From: a virus
Taxonomy: Duplodnaviria > Heunggongvirae > Uroviricota > Caudoviricetes
Strand: one strand, 5' to 3'
Virus record (IMG/VR): IMGVR_UViG_2541047683_000001
Length of the DNA: 38,758 nucleotides
The position numbers and the translations under genes are program-made. This document shows, piece by piece, positions 1,131-36,138 of this stretch. The notes under the pieces were generated by a model. That model was not told where the DNA came from and made no database searches. It was given only the letters and a program-made list of their open reading frames with translations. Every line of letters begins with the position of its first letter. Position 1 is the first letter of the stretch.

Positions 1131-3113
1131 TCATTTTGAGTTAAAAAAGCTTATAATTTCTGTCAGCCATGAAGGCGTATATTTTTCATTAATATCAAAA
1201 AGAGCATTGGTGTATTCTTGACAAAATTTAGTTTTATTTCCAGATTCCTCAAAATATCTTTTTATTATTAATTTTTGGCTAGTTGTCAGATCTAATATTC
1301 CAGCTGCAACATTGGACGGTAATGTGTTAATGTTCTCTATAAATGAGAATCTATTATCACCTTTCTTATAAAGTCGATGTAATGTTTTGTGGAAAATAAT
1401 CCCAGATAATACATCTTCAATTTCAGTTGGTGGAGAAACTCTATTGTCGGTGGTTTTTAGTAAGTCAGCATCACTTAAATCATCGCGTAGCAGCAGTCTT
1501 CTGATTCTGACTTGCGATATGCTGTCTGAAGTATCAAATTTATCATACGATTGATCTGTATCCAATAAACAAAAGACTTTTCCTTTTATTGCCGGCTTTC
1601 TGTCTTTTAAAGCTAAGATAAGATATGAGTAAATATCTTTGAGTGCAAATGACCCCCCAACACTTAATACAATTATATTTTTATTTTCTAAATTTTCAAA
1701 TTTAAGATGGGATTCAATGTATAATTTATCTGTACGTCCTTCGCACAATATCCAATTATAATTATTTTGTGATGTAATTGAAGTTATTATGGATTGAACA
1801 AGATCATGATTGCTTTTCACTTCTAAAGTATCTAAATATGAGCCTTTAGATTCTTTAACAAGGGTCGACAATTCATCTCGATAATACTCAAGGTTAAGGC
1901 ATTTTATCAATGCTTGATTTGGAGAAACATAAGTGGCACTACCGCTCATTGCTGCAGGAAGAAAACCATACCAATGAGTAGTACATATGGTTTGAATGCC
2001 TATTTCACTTATTTTTTTAATCTTCTCAAATTGTTTAAAGCAAGATGTCGCATGTAAAGATAACTCTGGTTCATCGACAGCTAATATTGTAGCTTGTTGA
2101 GTTTTTTTGGGATTGTCTTTTAAAAAACCTATGGCTAAATCAAGTAATGCCTTCCTTTTTTCACCAGAACTAAGATTGTGGACAGGTGTATCCCTATTGA
2201 TATTGTCAATATAATGAAGAATTTTGTCACTAAAGTAAGTTTCGATGATTTTAGAAATCATGTGGCGTTGAGTAAATGAATTCTGCCGTTGCGTCGGTCT
2301 TTTGAATTGATACTGCCCATCAAGCTTATATGATAGTTGATCAACAAAGTCATTTAAGTGACGATTTATTTCATTGATGTCACTTTTTTTAATTATCTTA
2401 CTGATTCGTTGTTGTAAGTTTTCTCCAAGTAAAGATTGCAATAACTCACTCTCTATTTTTGAATATTCTGACGTGGTAATTTCTGCAGGCAAATAAATAT
2501 AGTTATAGATATCTTTTATATTATCAAGCAAGCGATTTGATGTGTTCTTGAAATGGTTTTTCTGAGTGTTTGGGGAGCTTCCATCGGGAATTAGTTCATC
2601 AATTCTGGAATGATAATCCTCAATTGATTCAAATATTGACATATAAGATCTAGGTGCTTCATTCGCTTTTTCTTTTATGACTCCTAAAGGAATTAAAAAG
2701 TAATCTTTAGATGAGTAGTTTAACTCTAATATATTGCGATGTGATATAAATTTTTCGGCAATTGTTCGTTGCATTGAATTAAAGTCTTCACTTTCCAATT
2801 GCCATGTAATATCACTAATAACATCAAGAGCTTTATAAGTAAATGAATTAGACCTGAAGCGATCTTTACGTATGAGAAAAATTGGTACAATAAACGGTTC
2901 ACGAGTTTCGAATCCCAGACTCCTGGCATCATTATTTATATCAAGTCTGTTTATATCTGTTCTGTTAAGAACAACATCCAAAGCTTGCAATATTGAACTT
3001 TTTCCAACACCATTTTCACCAATAAGCCAAGATGAATTGTTATTCATAGCGATCGGAATATAATGTTGATTCCTAAAATTTTTGAAGTTTCTTAAAATAA
3101 CACCGATAATCAT
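1131..3113 (-). CDS. OLD-family protein: N-terminal ABC-type ATPase plus C-terminal TOPRIM-like nuclease domain (candidate anti-phage cargo)
   Basis: ORF track 1131..3116; ATG at 3113 with AAGGGA upstream, 19 nt after the repressor stop; Walker A GENGVGKSS; Walker B-like ILAVDEPELSLH; C-terminal ILCEGRTD glutamate motif and CLLDTDQ DxD motif; visibly AT-rich. Confidence 0.7.
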   Translation of the reverse strand: MIIGVILRNFKNFRNQHYIPIAMNNNSSWLIGENGVGKSSILQALDVVLNRTDINRLDINNDARSLGFETREPFIVPIFLIRKDRFRSNSFTYKALDVISDITWQLESEDFNSMQRTIAEKFISHRNILELNYSSKDYFLIPLGVIKEKANEAPRSYMSIFESIEDYHSRIDELIPDGSSPNTQKNHFKNTSNRLLDNIKDIYNYIYLPAEITTSEYSKIESELLQSLLGENLQQRISKIIKKSDINEINRHLNDFVDQLSYKLDGQYQFKRPTQRQNSFTQRHMISKIIETYFSDKILHYIDNINRDTPVHNLSSGEKRKALLDLAIGFLKDNPKKTQQATILAVDEPELSLHATSCFKQFEKIKKISEIGIQTICTTHWYGFLPAAMSGSATYVSPNQALIKCLNLEYYRDELSTLVKESKGSYLDTLEVKSNHDLVQSIITSITSQNNYNWILCEGRTDKLYIESHLKFENLENKNIIVLSVGGSFALKDIYSYLILALKDRKPAIKGKVFCLLDTDQSYDKFDTSDSISQVRIRRLLLRDDLSDADLLKTTDNRVSPPTEIEDVLSGIIFHKTLHRLYKKGDNRFSFIENINTLPSNVAAGILDLTTSQKLIIKRYFEESGNKTKFCQEYTNALFDINEKYTPSWLTEIISFFNSK

Positions 3114-11382: not shown

Positions 11383-11883
11383 ATGGAACAGGATTATATA
11401 GATCGTGGCTTTGGTTTATGGTCAAAACCTGGTGTCCCGCGTAAGGGATGGGTAAACGTAGGAGTGGAAGACCTAGAAGAAAGTCGAAAAATTTGTGATA
11501 TGTGTGGGAAAACAGAGATAAGGTATGTCCACATAATGTCACATGAGAATTACCCAGATTACTTAGAGGTAGGGTGCATATGCGCTGGTCACTTGGAGAA
11601 TGATTATGATTCTCCAAGAAAACGAGAAAGTGAAATTAAAAGTCGATCAGCCAAAAGAAAAAGATGGTGTAACTTACCTTGGAAAATATCTAAAAAAAAT
11701 CAATTTTACATAAAAAAAGATGGATATAGCATCATCATTCTCGACAAGGGTGATTATTTTATGGGAATGATAGTTGACGAGAGAACGCAAATTAAATATT
11801 GGACTAGAGAATGTAAAGATACTAACGAGGCGAAATTACTTTCATTCGATAGAATAACAGCGCTAATGGCAAGCTCTAAATAA
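11383..11883 (+). CDS. zinc-ribbon-like protein, first gene of a two-gene accessory cassette
   Basis: ATG 11383 with GGAGA upstream (track ORF starts 11371); cysteine cluster CDMCGK...VGCICAGH; lysine/arginine-rich tail; AT-rich. Confidence 0.65.
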   Translation: MEQDYIDRGFGLWSKPGVPRKGWVNVGVEDLEESRKICDMCGKTEIRYVHIMSHENYPDYLEVGCICAGHLENDYDSPRKRESEIKSRSAKRKRWCNLPWKISKKNQFYIKKDGYSIIILDKGDYFMGMIVDERTQIKYWTRECKDTNEAKLLSFDRITALMASSK

Positions 11884-11899
11884 TTTTAGGATTAATTAA

Positions 11900-13030
11900 A
11901 TGTATAATGTTGTATTGGATACAAACATACTCCATGCGGAAGGTATTCACTCACGAGGTATGGCAACTCTTAAAAAGTTAATAGATGAAGGCATTGTTAA
12001 AGTTCATTTGCCTGAACTAGTCGTGAGAGAATTTTCCACGAAAAAAATCACCGTAATAAATGAAGCCTATAATAAGGCGATTAATATTTTAAGAGGCACT
12101 GAACGCGAAGCAAGAGGATCCGAAGAGTCGATACTGCGAGATATTGATGAACTAAAAAACATCATAGACGACAAAGTGAAAGTACTTGATGAAAAAATTA
12201 ATGGTGCAGTTAGGCAATGGATTCAGGATTTTCGAATAAATATTATCCCGTTACATAGTGAATTTACATCAACTGTTTTTGAGAACTATTTTTGTGGCAA
12301 TGGTGTTTTTAAATCGAAAAAATCAAGAGAAGACATACCAGATGCTTTCATTAGCCTCAGTATCGAAAAGTTGCATGATGAAGTCGGTGAATTAATGGTT
12401 GTACTCAAGGATGCGTTGTTTAGAAAGCATTTGTCTGGCTTGGATGGGGTAAAAGTTTATGATAGCTTAGATGAACTTTTCCAATTGCCTAACATTAGAG
12501 CCAGTTTAGAAAATGAAGCCGCATCCTCTTTTTTGACATCAAGTTTATTCAGAACAGCGTTAGAAAACTTCTTACAGCAGAAACCGAATTATTTCGAAGG
12601 ATTCTATCTTGAGATTACTGAGGGAACAGAACTGCTTGCTGATTGGGTTATTGGTGCACATACCGAAATCAACGATTATGGACAAGTAAAGGATATTACA
12701 ATAAGTGATGTAATCAGAAAATCTGAAAGTAACTATTCAGCAAAAATTTCTTTTAAATTGGACTCTAATATCTCTTATGTAACGGATTACGGTGAAGTGC
12801 TTAAAATAGAGAGAGATAAAAACAGAAGCGCGGATTGTTGGAGTATGACAGGTGATGGCATGTGCGATCTTAATGAAAATGTGAATTTAACCTTGGAAGG
12901 TGACTTAAGTATTACCTTTCAAGGTGATTTCAATACATTGAAAAAAGAAGAATCCGAAACTTATTTGAATGAAAATGTTATTGTTATGACAATAAGTTTA
13001 TATGAGGCTATTATAGACAAAGTTCTTTGA
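11900..13030 (+). CDS. PIN-like domain protein, second gene of the cassette
   Basis: 376 aa; N-terminus MYNVVLDTNIL typical of PIN-fold first acidic residue, later EDIPDAF; AGGA RBS; 17 bp after upstream gene; AT-rich. Confidence 0.7.
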   Translation: MYNVVLDTNILHAEGIHSRGMATLKKLIDEGIVKVHLPELVVREFSTKKITVINEAYNKAINILRGTEREARGSEESILRDIDELKNIIDDKVKVLDEKINGAVRQWIQDFRINIIPLHSEFTSTVFENYFCGNGVFKSKKSREDIPDAFISLSIEKLHDEVGELMVVLKDALFRKHLSGLDGVKVYDSLDELFQLPNIRASLENEAASSFLTSSLFRTALENFLQQKPNYFEGFYLEITEGTELLADWVIGAHTEINDYGQVKDITISDVIRKSESNYSAKISFKLDSNISYVTDYGEVLKIERDKNRSADCWSMTGDGMCDLNENVNLTLEGDLSITFQGDFNTLKKEESETYLNENVIVMTISLYEAIIDKVL

Positions 13031-20598: not shown

Positions 20599-20992
20599 AG
20601 CAGTGCCTTATGTCCGCAATAACCCGGACAAACTGCATCTGTTTGTGGATAACGGTTCGCTGGTTGCCACGGGGGCCAGCTCCATGTCATGGGAGTACCG
20701 TTATACCCTCAACGTGGTGATTGAGGATTTCAGCGGCGACCAGAATCTGCTGATGGCCCCGGTTTTGCTGTGGCTGCGTGATAACCAGCCCGATGCCATC
20801 AATAACCCGGCGTTACGGGAAAAACTATTCACCTTTGAGGTGGATATTTTGCGCAACGATGTCTGTGATATCAGCCTTAACCTGCAACTGACGGAGCGTG
20901 TGCTGGTCAGTACTGACGGCAGTGTGTCGAGTGTTGAAGCTGTAGCGGAACCCGATGAACCTGAAGAAATGTGGACGGTGAAACGTGGCTGA
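20561..20992 (+). CDS. R: tail completion protein (P2 gpR-like)
   Basis: GTG 20561 with AGGAG 8 nt upstream gives MNKPQSLRHAL matching the gpR N-terminus; conserved FVDNGS...RYTLNVV. Confidence 0.85.
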   Translation: MNKPQSLRHALNKAVPYVRNNPDKLHLFVDNGSLVATGASSMSWEYRYTLNVVIEDFSGDQNLLMAPVLLWLRDNQPDAINNPALREKLFTFEVDILRNDVCDISLNLQLTERVLVSTDGSVSSVEAVAEPDEPEEMWTVKRG

Positions 20993-21428
20993 ACTGCAGA
21001 AGGTGGACGACTGGCTGAGTGCTTTGTTGGCGAATCTGGAACCAGCCGCAAGAAGCCGCATGATGCGGCAGCTGGCGCAGGAACTGCGTCGGACACAGCA
21101 GCAGAATATCAGAATGCAGCGCAATCCAGATGGCAGCAGTTATGAACCTCGACGGGTAACAGCACGCAGTAAAAAGGGGCGCATCAAACGTCAGATGTTT
21201 GCAAAGCTGCGCACCACAAAATACCTGAAAACTGCCGCCAGCGCCGACTCTGCCAGCGTACAGTTTGAAGGTAAGGTGCAGCGTATTGCCCGTGTTCACC
21301 ATTACGGCCTGCGTGATCGCGTCAGTCATAAAGGGCCGGAGGTCCGTTACGCAGAGCGTCGCCTTCTGGGTGTGAATAATGAGGTGGAAACAGTCACTCG
21401 TGACACCCTTATGCGCTGGCTGGGTTAG
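20985..21428 (+). CDS. S: tail completion protein (P2 gpS-like)
   Basis: 147-aa ORF following R, GTG start; gpS-like. Confidence 0.85.
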   Translation: MAELQKVDDWLSALLANLEPAARSRMMRQLAQELRRTQQQNIRMQRNPDGSSYEPRRVTARSKKGRIKRQMFAKLRTTKYLKTAASADSASVQFEGKVQRIARVHHYGLRDRVSHKGPEVRYAERRLLGVNNEVETVTRDTLMRWLG

Positions 21429-22330
21429 AGACTAATTTCTAACTCAGTCAATCTATTTCTTGCGTTATCGAGGTTAATCTCATCATGGATTGCTTTTCCT
21501 GCCCCGTCAGCAGAAGGGTATATGCTAGCCGCACTGAACCCTGCTTTATTAAGAAGCTGGTAAGCATTGTATACTTCTTTTATGGGGAGTGTGTATTTAA
21601 AGAATACCGGGTGCGGGAAATCCCCAGAAAGCTCCTCTAGGCTATGAATTGTAGCTGTCCGTCCTCGTCCGCCAGTATGTGGATGAACGCTAAAAAGCCC
21701 AAATTGCGCCGCTAAGTGCGGACTGATAGAACCTGCTGTTGAATGCAATTTTATTTGTGGGTGAAGATTTATAAACTCTTTATTAAAGGCCCATATGGCT
21801 AATTTACTGGATGCATTCCAGTTTTTATAATTAGCAATGCAGGAGCTAACTGCAAAGTAAATCGCTATGTAAGGGATTCGAGTCCAATCTAACAATCTTG
21901 TTGGCACGCCATGATGCTGTGCGAGAGCCATTAAGTCGAAAACTTCTGGATTTGGCCAAGATGATGGATTTATAAGCCAATAATCTTGATTATTTATATC
22001 TAAATGCAATCTGCGGAAGTCAGGGCTATTACCGGGGATACGGACACCTACTCTGTCACAGTGATGCACAAAAGACATTAATGTTATTATCTCGCTTGCA
22101 ACAATGTCATCCGACGTAGGTGATGTTCTTCTTGTTAAATATTGCGGTGGATTACGAAGTGCTGATGGGATCAAGCTCCAGTTGGCATCACCTTGCCCTC
22201 TATAAATAATATTATCTTTACAGTTTGGGTCTATCTTTTGTGTCGGTGATAGAGCATCCCAAAGTTCAGCTGCATTGTTAAATTCGCGTAGTGAAAAAGT
22301 CGGGTATTTACGTTCGCTCATTATTTTCAT
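21425..22330 (-). CDS. FRG-domain-like protein inserted antisense between S and V (candidate defence cargo)
   Basis: Track ORF 21425..22366 starts at GTG; first ATG at 22330; motif IIYRGQGDANWSLIPSALR resembles the FRG-domain signature; stop codon overlaps S stop; no clear RBS. Confidence 0.6.
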   Translation of the reverse strand: MKIMSERKYPTFSLREFNNAAELWDALSPTQKIDPNCKDNIIYRGQGDANWSLIPSALRNPPQYLTRRTSPTSDDIVASEIITLMSFVHHCDRVGVRIPGNSPDFRRLHLDINNQDYWLINPSSWPNPEVFDLMALAQHHGVPTRLLDWTRIPYIAIYFAVSSCIANYKNWNASSKLAIWAFNKEFINLHPQIKLHSTAGSISPHLAAQFGLFSVHPHTGGRGRTATIHSLEELSGDFPHPVFFKYTLPIKEVYNAYQLLNKAGFSAASIYPSADGAGKAIHDEINLDNARNRLTELEISL

Positions 22331-22339
22331 TTGTAGTTT

Positions 22340-22357
22340 TGTGTGGATAACCACACA
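22340..22357. promoter_or_regulatory. Ogr-type late activator site TGTGTGGATAACCACACA upstream of V
   Basis: Near-perfect palindromic TGT-N12-ACA about 50 bp upstream of the V ATG; overlaps the GTG-extended 5' end of the antisense FRG-like ORF. Confidence 0.5.
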
Positions 22358-22403
22358 AGTTAGCACACTGCATATTAAAAGTGACCAATGGCACTCTTAT
22401 GCC

Positions 22404-22982
22404 ATGAACGCACAACTCACAGAAATCATGCGCCTTATCACCAACCTGATCCGCACAGGTGTAGTCACCAAAGTGGACCGGGAGAACTGGCTTTGCCGGG
22501 TGAAAACGGGCGACCTTGAAACCAACTGGATCAGCTGGCTGACGCTGCGTGCCGGGAATGCCCGCACATGGTGGCGACCATCGGAAGGTGAGCAGGTGGT
22601 GCTGCTGAGTCTGGGCGGCAATCTGGAAACCGCCTTTGCGTTACCCGCCATCTATTCGAATCAGTTCGCGCCACCGTCGACGTCGGCGGACGCCTGCGTG
22701 ACAGAACATCCTGACGGTGGCTGGTTTGAATACGAACCCGCCACCGGGCGCTGGTTTGTCAGGGGCATCAAATCAATGGTCATTGAGACCGCTGACAATA
22801 TCACCCTGAAAACCAGTGAGTTTGTGCTGGAGGCTGACCGCACGCGTATTAACAGCGAAGTGGTGATCAATGGTGGCGTTACCCAGAGCGGCGGTGCGAT
22901 GAGTTCTAACGGGATCGTGGTTGATGCGCATCAGCATACTGGCGTCCTGAAAGGCGGCGATACAACCGGAGGCCCGGTATGA
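22404..22982 (+). CDS. V: baseplate spike protein (P2 gpV-like)
   Basis: ATG 22404; NWISWLTLRAG...RTWW.PS.GEQVV.LS conserved gpV block. Confidence 0.9.
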   Translation: MNAQLTEIMRLITNLIRTGVVTKVDRENWLCRVKTGDLETNWISWLTLRAGNARTWWRPSEGEQVVLLSLGGNLETAFALPAIYSNQFAPPSTSADACVTEHPDGGWFEYEPATGRWFVRGIKSMVIETADNITLKTSEFVLEADRTRINSEVVINGGVTQSGGAMSSNGIVVDAHQHTGVLKGGDTTGGPV

Positions 22983-27199: not shown

Positions 27200-28072
27200 T
27201 TAACTAGCGTGTAATAAGTTGAACAGGTTTTTAGTTACTTCGTTTTTAGTACTAAAAAACATATCTTTAAGGTCAGGTAATGCAAAGAGAGCATTTGGGG
27301 CATTCGGTACAACAATAGGAGGTTCATATCCGTTGTCATACATTTTCTTTAAAGCGGCTACTATTTTTTTCTGATTTCGATTGAATTCATTCATGTCAAT
27401 AAAAATTTCTCCAGATAGTGTCCCGTCATCTTCACGTAGTATCGCTGGTTTGACACGACATATCTGATCCATTTCTCCAGTAGAAAAACCGGCAATCGCT
27501 GCATTAAATAACAAAGATGAAGTAGCCCATTTTTCATATAGTTTTTTGATAGCCATGCTTCTGATTTTTTTATCGTTGATATATCCAATGCCACTGGCCA
27601 AAACTTCGGTTAATGGATTTTCCCCGCGAGTTACTCCAGACCAATAGTTGTGCATCCAGGGCGCATTTTGCTCAAGTGGAGAGCCGAGATAATCAGTGAT
27701 CCACTCTGAATCCACCTCTGTAAAGTTCAAACCATGAAAATCAATTTCTGCAATAGTATTTTTATAGTTTTGATTTAAACTCCAACGGTCGATTGCTATT
27801 TCAGCCATTTCTTTTGTTTTGAATAGGTATATTCCGGTTAGGCGGGAAACCTTATCTCTGAAATTGTCTGAGCGAACCTTTTCAAGAGCTAACTCATTTT
27901 GTAATTTTTCATTGTGATTATCTGATAAGTATTTCCTTACTAGATTGTAGAACCAAATAGATACTCCAAACTCACTTTTATAGCAAATTGATTCAATTCT
28001 TCCTATTGCAACCTCCCAGGCAACAATTGGATTATTTAAATTTAAGTAAGCATATAGTTTTCTCTGTTCCAT
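27200..28072 (-). CDS. hypothetical 290-aa protein, AT-rich cargo at the tail fibre/invertase locus (candidate defence or exclusion gene)
   Basis: Track ORF 27200..28171; ATG 28072 with AAGGAAA RBS (upstream extension is AT-rich and RBS-less); globular-looking, not fibre-like; no motif I recognise. Confidence 0.6.
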   Translation of the reverse strand: MEQRKLYAYLNLNNPIVAWEVAIGRIESICYKSEFGVSIWFYNLVRKYLSDNHNEKLQNELALEKVRSDNFRDKVSRLTGIYLFKTKEMAEIAIDRWSLNQNYKNTIAEIDFHGLNFTEVDSEWITDYLGSPLEQNAPWMHNYWSGVTRGENPLTEVLASGIGYINDKKIRSMAIKKLYEKWATSSLLFNAAIAGFSTGEMDQICRVKPAILREDDGTLSGEIFIDMNEFNRNQKKIVAALKKMYDNGYEPPIVVPNAPNALFALPDLKDMFFSTKNEVTKNLFNLLHAS

Positions 28073-28209: not shown

Positions 28210-28614
28210 ATGCTAATAGGCTATGTACTCGTGTCAACAAATGACCAGAACACCGAGCTGTAACTCTTTATGCTGACAGAAGAGTTGCGCCAGCATGGTG
28301 TGAATTTTAGAAGCCTGACTGACAGTATTGATACCAGTACCCCAATGGGCCGTTTCTTTTTTCATGTCACGGGTGCCCTGGCTGAAATGGAACGCGAACT
28401 GATAGTTGAACGTACCAGGGCGGGGCTTGCTGCAGCTCGCGCCAAAGGCAGAGTAGGTGGACGCCGTCCTAAGTTGACCACCGAACAGTGGGCACAGATT
28501 GGGCGTTTACTCGAGGCCGGAGAATCAAGACAGCGTATTGCACTGATTTTTGATGTGGGTGTTTCCACAATTTATAGAAAATTTCCGCCAAATAAGAGCA
28601 ATGAATCCCCCTGA
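28210..28614 (+). pseudogene. serine DNA invertase (Pin/Gin/Hin family) inactivated by in-frame internal deletion with stop codon
   Basis: N-terminus MLIGYVLVSTNDQNTEL then TAA at 28261, continuing in frame with EELRQHGVNFRSLTDSIDTSTPMGRFFFHVTGALAEMERELI...GRRPKLT (C-terminal two-thirds of an invertase); about 65 catalytic-domain codons missing; R-to-L change in GYVRVS motif. Confidence 0.8.
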
Positions 28615-35926: not shown

Positions 35927-36138
35927 CGTTAAAAAACAGTGCTTCTAACATCATGATTTTAAAAGGCATAAATTTTAGACAACAAAAAACCCACCAACCT
36001 TGAACCGAAATGGCGGGGTTGATGGGCTCCACAAAATGGGGACATCAAAGAAAAGCAGTGGCACTAATTAAGACTGATGCCCTGCGGAAAAGTTCTGCGG
36101 TTGTGCAAAAAAATTTCATTTTCAGGGCAACTTCAGTT

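What the first reader, a model, noticed from the sequence alone, without database searches (positions are those of the whole stretch)
21425..22330. FRG-like gene inserted antisense between tail genes S and V, abutting the PV late promoter
P2 has no gene between S and V. Here a minus-strand ORF of about 300 aa fills that gap exactly: its stop codon overlaps the S stop (shared TTAG), and its 5' end lies 10 bp from the Ogr-type dyad at 22340..22357 that should drive V. The protein carries an IIYRGQGDANWSLIPSALR motif resembling the FRG domain, a family found in defence islands and little characterised. Its promoter must overlap the V promoter region, so expression could be coupled to, or antagonised by, late transcription. 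The region is moderately AT-rich.
Basis: partly seen in the sequence, partly recalled or inferred. Interest (0 to 1): 0.7.

Follow-up and report, generated by a model that had tools for sequence, protein, structure and literature searches.

The report
FRG-domain cargo gene in P2-like prophage
A real, well-conserved gene of the poorly understood FRG family sits backwards between two tail genes of a P2-like E. coli prophage, at a spot already known to collect foreign genes, and is probably a one-gene anti-phage weapon, though that is untested.

Summary
A minus-strand ORF at 21425..22330 (301 aa) lies between tail genes S and V. Its stop overlaps the S stop, and its ATG is 9 nt from the late-activator dyad at 22339..22358. 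GC is 0.41 against 0.56-0.57 in the flanks. It matches Pfam FRG (70.8 bits, cut-off 25) and the PADLOC candidate PDC-S15 (1e-31). It is under strong purifying selection (dN/dS 0.044).

P2 itself carries Orf30, antisense, at this position, and the orf30 locus is a published horizontal-transfer site.

In E. coli P2-like prophages the site is empty or holds at least a dozen unrelated single genes. These include two FRG alleles, SIR2, TIR, DUF2971, DUF6216, DUF5677 and several hypotheticals. The same FRG clade sits at S-V in Enterobacter, Pantoea and Salmonella phage SEN8.

RefSeq already annotates the gene as an FRG domain-containing protein.

A confident AF2 model (pLDDT 90) gives weak but recurrent hits to ADP-ribosyltransferase folds. 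This agrees with published predictions that FRG is ART-like and possibly a NADase.

Best reading: a prophage-borne single-gene defence candidate acting on NAD+. The function is inferred, not shown.

Ordinary in kind, with modest interest.

The parts
21425..22330 (-). FRG-domain protein gene (301 aa plus stop). The RefSeq start is ATG 22321 (WP_050483768.1, 298 aa). An upstream in-frame GTG at 22366 is unlikely to be the start.
   Evidence: ORF; Pfam FRG, 70.8 bits; PDC-S15, 1.1e-31; PHROG 4962, 5e-64; RefSeq annotation; homologues start near MxRKYPxF; dN/dS 0.044.
21842..22213 (-). Stretch matching the Pfam FRG model (residues 40-163). It holds the invariant YRG motif (R44, G45), E80, and the AQHHGVPTRLLDW block (H139, T144, R145, D148).
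   Evidence: domain limits; invariant columns.
21383..22387 (.). Segment with no homology to the closest empty-site prophages. The exchanged cassette comprises the 3' end of S, the FRG gene, and the pV dyad and promoter.
   Evidence: blastn breakpoints against E. coli S10, L004; junction sequences.
20985..21428 (+). Tail completion / virion morphogenesis gene S. Its last ~15 codons belong to the variable cassette.
   Evidence: S C-termini differ with each cargo type.
21417..21450 (+). Strong hairpin spanning the S and FRG stop codons, followed by AATCTATTTCTT. It is a possible intrinsic terminator of the late O-operon transcript.
   Evidence: terminator-like site; -19.7 kcal/mol, z = -5.17; not conserved in the Enterobacter, Pantoea or SEN8 copies, so its significance is uncertain.
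22339..22358 (+). Ogr/B-type late-activator dyad TTGT-N12-ACAA of the pV promoter, centred 55.5 bp upstream of the V ATG.
   Evidence: same geometry in P2, SEN8, Cartapus and the empty site; 3 matches in the window, all at late-promoter positions.
22404..22982 (+). Baseplate assembly gene V. The 235-aa ORF listed from TTG 22275 is the V frame run upstream, not a separate gene.
   Evidence: MNAQLTEIMRLITNL start shared by all relatives.

Best explanation
The ORF is a functional accessory ('moron') gene of a P2/186-like prophage integrated in E. coli. It occupies the S-V variable locus, the same position as P2 orf30.

Shown:
- It encodes a standalone ~300-aa FRG-family protein that is conserved over its whole length.
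- It is under strong purifying selection.
- It is carried by mobile elements (P2-like prophages of several Enterobacterales, plasmids, islands).
- It is one of many mutually exclusive single-gene cargos at this site, which also include SIR2 and TIR proteins.

Inferred:
- It is expressed from the lysogen and acts as a single-gene anti-phage (abortive-infection or exclusion) effector.
- Its catalytic core is a divergent ADP-ribosyltransferase-like fold that uses NAD+. It either depletes NAD+ as a NADase or ADP-ribosylates a protein or nucleic-acid target.
- The invariant residues R44 (YRG), E80, D148 and Q209, plus the near-invariant H139, T144 and R145, are the candidate active site.
- The cassette moves between phages by homologous recombination in the conserved parts of S and V, carrying its own S 3' end and its own pV promoter variant.
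- Its promoter must overlap pV or lie inside V. Binding of the late activator at the dyad 9 nt from the ATG could therefore shut the gene off during the prophage's own lytic cycle. This last step is speculation.
For: Identity:
- Pfam FRG 70.8 bits against a cut-off of 25.
- PADLOC PDC-S15 at 1.1e-31, covering profile positions 18-250 of 254.
- 1225 close homologues, all with PF08867.
- 10,851 50%-identity clusters at E<=1e-3, mostly 280-320 aa and matching over the full length.

Functional gene: dN/dS 0.044 at dS 1.5.

Site:
- P2 Orf30 is at the same place, and the site is published as a horizontal-transfer locus (PMC3091744).
- FRG lies antisense at S-V in Enterobacter bugandensis, Pantoea agglomerans, Salmonella phage SEN8 and porcine ETEC.
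- Alternative cargos at the site are SIR2_2, TIR_2, DUF2971 (PDC-S31), DUF6216, DUF5677 and five unrelated hypotheticals.
- 29 of 49 sampled two-flank loci are empty.
- All cargos whose composition was computed (FRG copies, P2 orf30, the Cartapus ORF) are AT-rich, GC 0.32-0.41 against 0.56-0.60 in the flanks.

Mobility: relatives occur on 106 plasmids, 67 of them conjugative, and next to resolvases in Pseudomonas.

Fold:
- The AF2 model has pLDDT 90.4 and pTM 0.87.
- The Foldseek top three hits are ART toxins, though not significant.

Literature: FRG is classed as ART-like and a possible NADase and antiviral effector (PMC9503650; 10.1101/2024.07.30.605764).

The same prophage also carries an OLD/AriA-like ATPase-TOPRIM gene and a PIN_12 gene in its other variable loci.
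Against: - No experiment on any FRG protein was found. PDC-S15 is only a candidate.
- The classical ART triads (R-S-E, H-Y-E) are not evident. There is no ExE motif, only Q209-x-G.
- No credible sigma-70 promoter or Shine-Dalgarno sequence was found upstream. The only promoter-like match, 22347->22320, overlaps the start codons.
- Several cargos at the site have no defence signature at all, so location alone does not prove defence.
- The allele is rare: 3 of 5426 complete E. coli genomes.
Confidence: 0.55

Rival explanations
1. It is a defence effector, but not a NADase. The FRG core would modify or cleave nucleic acid, for example by Tpt1/KptA-like transfer of ADP-ribose to RNA or DNA phosphate ends, or DarT-like DNA ADP-ribosylation, rather than deplete NAD+.
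Confidence: 0.2
2. It is a lysogenic-conversion, toxin or addiction function unrelated to phage defence. It could be an ART-like toxin that benefits the host or stabilises the prophage.
For: The structural neighbours are mostly bacterial ART toxins. P2-like variable loci also carry non-defence cargo such as cytolethal distending toxin and partition systems (PMC9122126). Half of the S-V cargos show no defence signature.
Against: There is no signal peptide, secretion partner or adjacent immunity or antitoxin gene. The gene stands alone in every context examined. The site also holds SIR2, TIR and PDC-S31 proteins, which are typical of defence. The family is listed by PADLOC as a defence candidate.
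Confidence: 0.13
3. It serves the phage's own lytic cycle or counter-defence, for example by destroying NAD+-derived immune signals, and is expressed during infection rather than in the lysogen.
For: It sits among late genes with its 5' end inside the pV control region. Phages encode many ADPr-processing enzymes (PMC9503650).
Against: It is antisense to both late operons, and most close relatives of the phage lack it with no change to the tail genes. The same paper notes that NADase-type ARTs are under-represented in viruses and deployed by host immunity. Homologues are common on plasmids and chromosomal islands outside phages.
Confidence: 0.08
4. It is a decaying passenger: horizontally acquired AT-rich DNA with no current function.
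For: Low GC, rarity in E. coli, and no recognisable promoter or SD sequence.
Against: The 301-codon frame is intact in AT-rich DNA. dN/dS is 0.044 across saturated synonymous divergence. 38 columns are invariant among the 46 sequences of alignment A1, and the AF2 model is confident. Position is conserved across four genera.
Confidence: 0.02

Closest known systems
P2 orf30 locus (the S-V variable locus of P2-like phages; Nilsson & Haggard-Ljungquist, as cited in PMC3091744)
   Same: Same position between S and the pV activator site. Same antisense orientation, single gene, AT-rich, non-essential, and absent from or different in close relatives.
   Different: The protein is unrelated to P2 Orf30 (BLASTP E 2.4, hhalign probability 0.3%). 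P2 has a separate terminator and 70 bp between S and orf30, whereas here the stops overlap.
FRG domain family (Pfam PF08867) / PADLOC candidate PDC-S15
   Same: Strong full-length HMM matches, the [FY]RG motif, and a standalone ~300-aa architecture.
   Different: Nothing distinguishes it from the family. It is an ordinary member. Only its residence in a phage tail-gene cluster is a particular context.
FRG gene of Salmonella phage SEN8 (HOR04_gp17, YP_009785159.1) and of porcine ETEC P2-like prophages
   Same: Same site, orientation and family.
   Different: Only 46-47% amino-acid identity, while S and V are 83-86% identical. It is therefore a separate allele or a separate acquisition. SEN8 has a 14-bp gap after S instead of overlapping stops.
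ADP-ribosyltransferase superfamily (KptA/Tpt1, cholera/LT/pertussis-type toxins, DarT, RES)
   Same: These are the recurrent top structural neighbours of the AF2 model. A conserved Arg follows the first core strand, as in the R-S-E clade. The literature classes FRG as ART-like.
P2-like defence hotspots (old/tin 'TO' locus between A and Q; Z/fun locus) described by Rousset 2022 and Vassallo 2022
   Same: A small locus between conserved phage genes with high cargo turnover, including recognised defence domains (SIR2, TIR).
   Different: It is a different locus. Those papers and the iLund4u survey do not list it. It holds only one gene at a time in the cases seen, and it sits directly on a late promoter.

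Membership tests
FRG domain family (PF08867) | Score above Pfam's gathering cut-off | tested here: met
   70.8 bits against 25, E 1.8e-19, profile positions 2-88 of 94.
FRG domain family (PF08867) | Conserved [FY]-R-G motif after the first core strand | tested here: met
   Y43-R44-G45. R44 and G45 are invariant in both alignments, and the strand spans residues 41-46 in the model.
PADLOC PDC-S15 (candidate single-gene defence) | Match to the PDC-S15 profiles | tested here: met
   14 PDC-S15 models hit; the best is 1.1e-31, covering 18-250 of 254.
PADLOC PDC-S15 (candidate single-gene defence) | Demonstrated anti-phage activity | not testable with these tools
   No experimental report was found in five literature searches.
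PADLOC PDC-S15 (candidate single-gene defence) | Genomic association with defence genes or variable MGE loci | tested here: met
   The gene is allelic with SIR2, TIR and PDC-S31 cargo at S-V. The same prophage carries OLD/AriA-like and PIN_12 genes. Pseudomonas copies lie next to resolvases and kinase/PP2C genes.
ADP-ribosyltransferase (ART) superfamily | ART split-beta-sheet NAD+-binding fold | tested here: inconclusive
ADP-ribosyltransferase (ART) superfamily | Catalytic triad (R-S-E or H-Y-E) | tested here: inconclusive
   The invariant R44 fits the first position. No STS or ExE motif is present. Invariant E80, D148 and Q209 are candidates, but no structural superposition was possible.
ADP-ribosyltransferase (ART) superfamily | NAD+ consumption or ADP-ribose transfer | not testable with these tools
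   Needs biochemistry. Only predictions exist in the literature.
P2 orf30-locus cargo | Lies between S and the pV activator-binding dyad | tested here: met
P2 orf30-locus cargo | Low GC relative to flanks, and absent or replaced in close relatives | tested here: met
   GC 0.41 against 0.56-0.57. Empty site in relatives 93-97% identical in the flanks. At least 12 alternative cargos.
P2 orf30-locus cargo | Homology to the P2 Orf30 protein | tested here: not met
   BLASTP E 2.4; hhalign probability 0.3%. It is a positional analogue only.

The most novel reading that the evidence does not exclude
The S-V (orf30) locus may be an under-recognised third defence hotspot of P2-like phages that favours single-gene NAD+-targeting effectors (SIR2, TIR, FRG). 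FRG would then be a new standalone ART-fold abortive-infection enzyme. Placing it directly on the Ogr/B-dependent pV promoter would switch it off when the prophage itself goes lytic.
Probability: 0.3. Interest if true: 0.55.

Novelty: new member of a known kind. Interest (0 to 1): 0.3.

Why it matters
FRG is a very large family (more than 10,000 50%-identity clusters) that sits on phages, plasmids and islands, and no member has been tested experimentally. This copy is a compact single gene of 906 bp in a well-understood E. coli phage, so it would be a convenient starting point for finding out what FRG proteins do.

The S-V site also offers a small, easily anchored catalogue of single-gene candidates (SIR2, TIR, FRG, DUF2971, DUF6216, DUF5677 and several unknowns) that published P2 hotspot surveys have largely passed over. 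One of these, DUF6216, is in the laboratory strain E. coli B.

Against that, nothing here is new in kind. The gene is already annotated, the locus has been known as a horizontal-transfer site for about twenty years, and the defence role is still only a prediction.

Tried and rejected
- Homology between FRG and P2 Orf30, or the other S-V cargos (DUF2971, DUF5677, DUF6216): none by BLASTP or hhalign.
- NCBIfam: no model matches.
- Sequence search of the PDB with the family profile: only a spurious coiled-coil hit at E 1.2.
- Foldseek against the PDB and BFVD: nothing significant. The afdb50 library was unavailable.
- The only promoter-like site near the 5' end (TCCACA-16-AATAAT, 22347->22320) is rejected. 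Its -10 lies on the start codons, and homologues show the protein begins at 22330 or 22321.
- A possible extended -10 (TGTGATAAT) is present in the Enterobacter copy but degenerate here (TGTGCTAAC). I do not claim a promoter.
- The hairpin at the S stop is strong (z -5.2) but not conserved in other FRG carriers, so it is reported only as a possible terminator.
- The 235-aa plus-strand ORF from 22275 is the V frame extended upstream, not a gene.
- Rfam found nothing in or near the locus.
- The papers by Burroughs & Aravind (2020) and Burroughs et al. (2015) that first classified FRG are not held, so their arguments could not be read.

Full report
**What is in the sequence**

The window is a P2/186-like (Peduoviridae) prophage of E. 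coli. The stretch 20900-22900 is 100% identical to strains C4, SCU-105 and SW070912, and other window segments map collinearly onto the C4 prophage record. The order runs integrase, cI, replication genes, Q/P, O-N-M-L-X, lysis genes, R, S, [FRG], V-W-J-I-H-G, FI...D, ogr.

A minus-strand ORF runs from ATG 22330 to a TAA whose complement is 21425-21427, giving 301 aa. RefSeq starts it three codons later, at 22321. An in-frame GTG at 22366 is unlikely to be the start, because homologues begin at the MxRKYPxF position.

Its stop and the S stop (TAG, 21426-21428) share the bases TTAG. The ATG lies 9 nt from the dyad TTGTGTGGATAACCACACAA at 22339-22358. The motif IIYRGQGDANWSLIPSALR is present.

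**It is a real gene**

- Pfam FRG (PF08867) scores 70.8 bits against a cut-off of 25.
- Fourteen PADLOC PDC-S15 models match; the best is 1.1e-31 and covers nearly the full profile.
- PHROG 4962, of unknown function, matches at 5e-64. NCBIfam has no model.
- There are 1225 close homologues, all carrying PF08867.
- An exhaustive HMMER search of 1.84 billion cluster representatives finds 10,851 clusters at E<=1e-3. Almost all are 280-320 aa and match over the whole length. The unit is therefore a standalone ~300-aa protein, larger than the 94-position Pfam model.
- Against the Enterobacter bugandensis copy (88% aa, 81% nt identity), dN/dS is 0.044 with dS 1.5. That indicates strong purifying selection.

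The P2 reference genome has Orf30 (261 aa, 'nonessential') on the minus strand between S and the annotated pV activator-binding site. PMC3091744 states that the TO region, Z/fun and orf30 are the three places where P2-like phages commonly carry horizontally acquired genes.

Every variant I examined keeps a TGT-N12-ACA dyad at the same distance from the V ATG, with the centre about 55 bp upstream. This holds for P2, SEN8, Cartapus, the empty-site prophage and this window. In the window the extended pattern TTGT-N12-ACAA occurs only three times, in the P/O intergenic region, upstream of V and upstream of FI. These are the expected late promoters (0.87 matches expected by chance). The dyad is thus a genuine late-activator site, and the cargo always sits between the S stop and that dyad.

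**How it got there**

Relative to the closest empty-site prophage (E. coli S10; S 93% and V 97% identical), homology stops at 21382/21383 and resumes at 22387/22388. A 1005-bp segment therefore replaces 101 bp. The segment includes the last ~15 codons of S and the whole pV dyad and promoter. The S C-terminus differs with each cargo type compared (FRG alleles, the Cartapus ORF, P2 Orf30, the empty site).

This looks like cassette exchange by recombination within the conserved parts of S and V, not a clean insertion.

**Distribution**

In complete E. coli genomes, 1039 of 5426 carry the flanks. Only 3 carry this allele. Nineteen carry a second FRG allele (47% aa identity, SEN8-like, mostly porcine ETEC).

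In an evenly spaced sample of hits, 29 of 49 two-flank loci were empty and 20 carried cargo. The cargos seen were:
- a SIR2_2 protein (ThsA/Dsr1/LmuA-like by PADLOC);
- a TIR_2 protein;
- DUF2971 (PDC-S31);
- DUF6216, present in E. coli B laboratory strains;
- DUF5677;
- four unrelated hypotheticals;
- the Cartapus 176-aa ORF and P2 Orf30.

These are documented. Most are antisense to the late genes, but SIR2 and TIR are co-oriented with them. Antisense placement is therefore not a rule.

The same FRG clade sits antisense at S-V in Enterobacter bugandensis, Pantoea agglomerans and Salmonella phage SEN8. FRG divergence tracks S/V divergence for Enterobacter and Pantoea but not for SEN8, which implies at least two acquisitions.

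Outside P2-like phages, close relatives lie in several contexts:
- next to convergent small resolvases in Pseudomonas;
- in small islands in Aeromonas and Vibrio;
- on 106 plasmids, 67 of them conjugative.

**What the protein may do**

An AF2 model built on a 46-sequence alignment is confident (pLDDT 90.4, pTM 0.87). No PDB relative is detectable by sequence.

This agrees with published classifications. [quoted passage not shown] It is also listed among known ART-like families in a Legionella survey (10.1101/2024.07.30.605764).

In a diverse alignment (27-43% identity) the invariant residues are R44, G45, E80, L147, D148, F159 and Q209. P55, R59, D92, R106, W125, P126, Q138, H139, P143, T144, R145 and W149 are among the residues at least 90% conserved. 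R44 follows the first core strand, as in R-S-E ARTs, but there is no STS or ExE motif.

ART membership therefore remains inconclusive on my tests. The chemistry could be NAD+ hydrolysis or ADP-ribose transfer to protein or nucleic acid, and this is open.

**Regulation**

The 73 bp between the FRG ATG and the V ATG are filled by pV elements. An FRG promoter must therefore overlap pV or lie inside V.

The consensus scan found only a site that overlaps the start codons, and I reject it. The Enterobacter copy has a good extended -10 (TGTGATAAT) just upstream of the dyad, but the E. coli copy is degenerate there. There is no obvious Shine-Dalgarno sequence.

A strong hairpin spans the two stop codons (21417-21450; -19.7 kcal/mol, z -5.2) and is followed by a U-rich stretch. 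It could terminate the late O-operon transcript, as the annotated terminator after S does in P2. It is not conserved in other FRG carriers.

The idea that late-activator binding silences FRG during the prophage's own lytic growth is attractive, but no evidence supports it.

**Verdict**

The FRG identification is strongly supported.

The thing is a further cargo type in the known orf30 variable locus of P2-like phages. It is an ordinary member of the large, uncharacterised FRG / PDC-S15 family and is already annotated as such in RefSeq.

Its most likely role is a single-gene, NAD+-dependent anti-phage effector expressed from the lysogen. I give the defence role about 0.55-0.6 and a specifically NAD+-based mechanism less than that.

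Literature searches found no experimental test of any FRG protein.

The most useful by-product concerns the S-V site itself. In E. coli it behaves as a one-gene hotspot with SIR2, TIR, FRG and several unknown cargos, and the P2 hotspot papers I could read do not describe it.

Noticed in passing
window 1134-3113 (-): An AT-rich (GC ~0.32) 660-aa gene lies between the integrase and cI. It has AAA_15/AAA_21 ATPase and OLD-like TOPRIM domains, and its best PADLOC hits are AriA (5e-22), mad3 and Old. It is probably an OLD-family or PARIS-like defence gene in the int-cI variable locus.
   Followed up: partly
window 11383-13027 (+): An AT-rich pair lies in the classical TO hotspot between the replication endonuclease and portal genes. 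It consists of a 166-aa hypothetical and a 376-aa PIN_12 domain protein. Neither has a PADLOC match, so this may be an undescribed two-gene system.
   Followed up: partly
window 27203-28072 (-) and about 28264-28614 (+): An AT-rich 290-aa hypothetical with no Pfam or PADLOC hit sits in the Z/fun position. It lies next to a truncated serine recombinase (invertase remnant) and a partial inverted tail-fibre-assembly gene.
   Followed up: partly
window 35981-36059 (-): [quoted passage not shown] The prophage attachment site is probably at or beside rybB.
   Followed up: no
L016 674-1480 (E. coli B strain C3029; also NEBExpress and INSC1002): The P2-like prophage of E. coli B laboratory strains carries a DUF6216 gene at the same S-V site. 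It is antisense and overlaps the S 3' end by 59 bp. It has no known function and no PADLOC hit.
   Followed up: partly
L008 5001-6497; L011 and L012 5001-6508: In Pseudomonas, FRG genes (45-51% identical) are paired tail-to-tail, with overlapping 3' ends, with a ~204-aa serine resolvase. In L011 and L012 the pair lies just downstream of a pilin gene and beside PP2C and two protein-kinase genes. This may be a small mobile FRG-resolvase unit.
   Followed up: no
L013 805-2010; L014 848-1648: The SIR2 and TIR cargos at the S-V site are on the same strand as the late genes, unlike the FRG, DUF and hypothetical cargos examined. They could therefore be read through from the late O operon.
   Followed up: no
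window 21417-21450 (+): An unusually stable hairpin (z -5.2) is formed by the last codons of S pairing with the last codons of FRG. It is present in this E. coli allele only and absent from the Enterobacter, Pantoea and SEN8 copies.
   Followed up: yes
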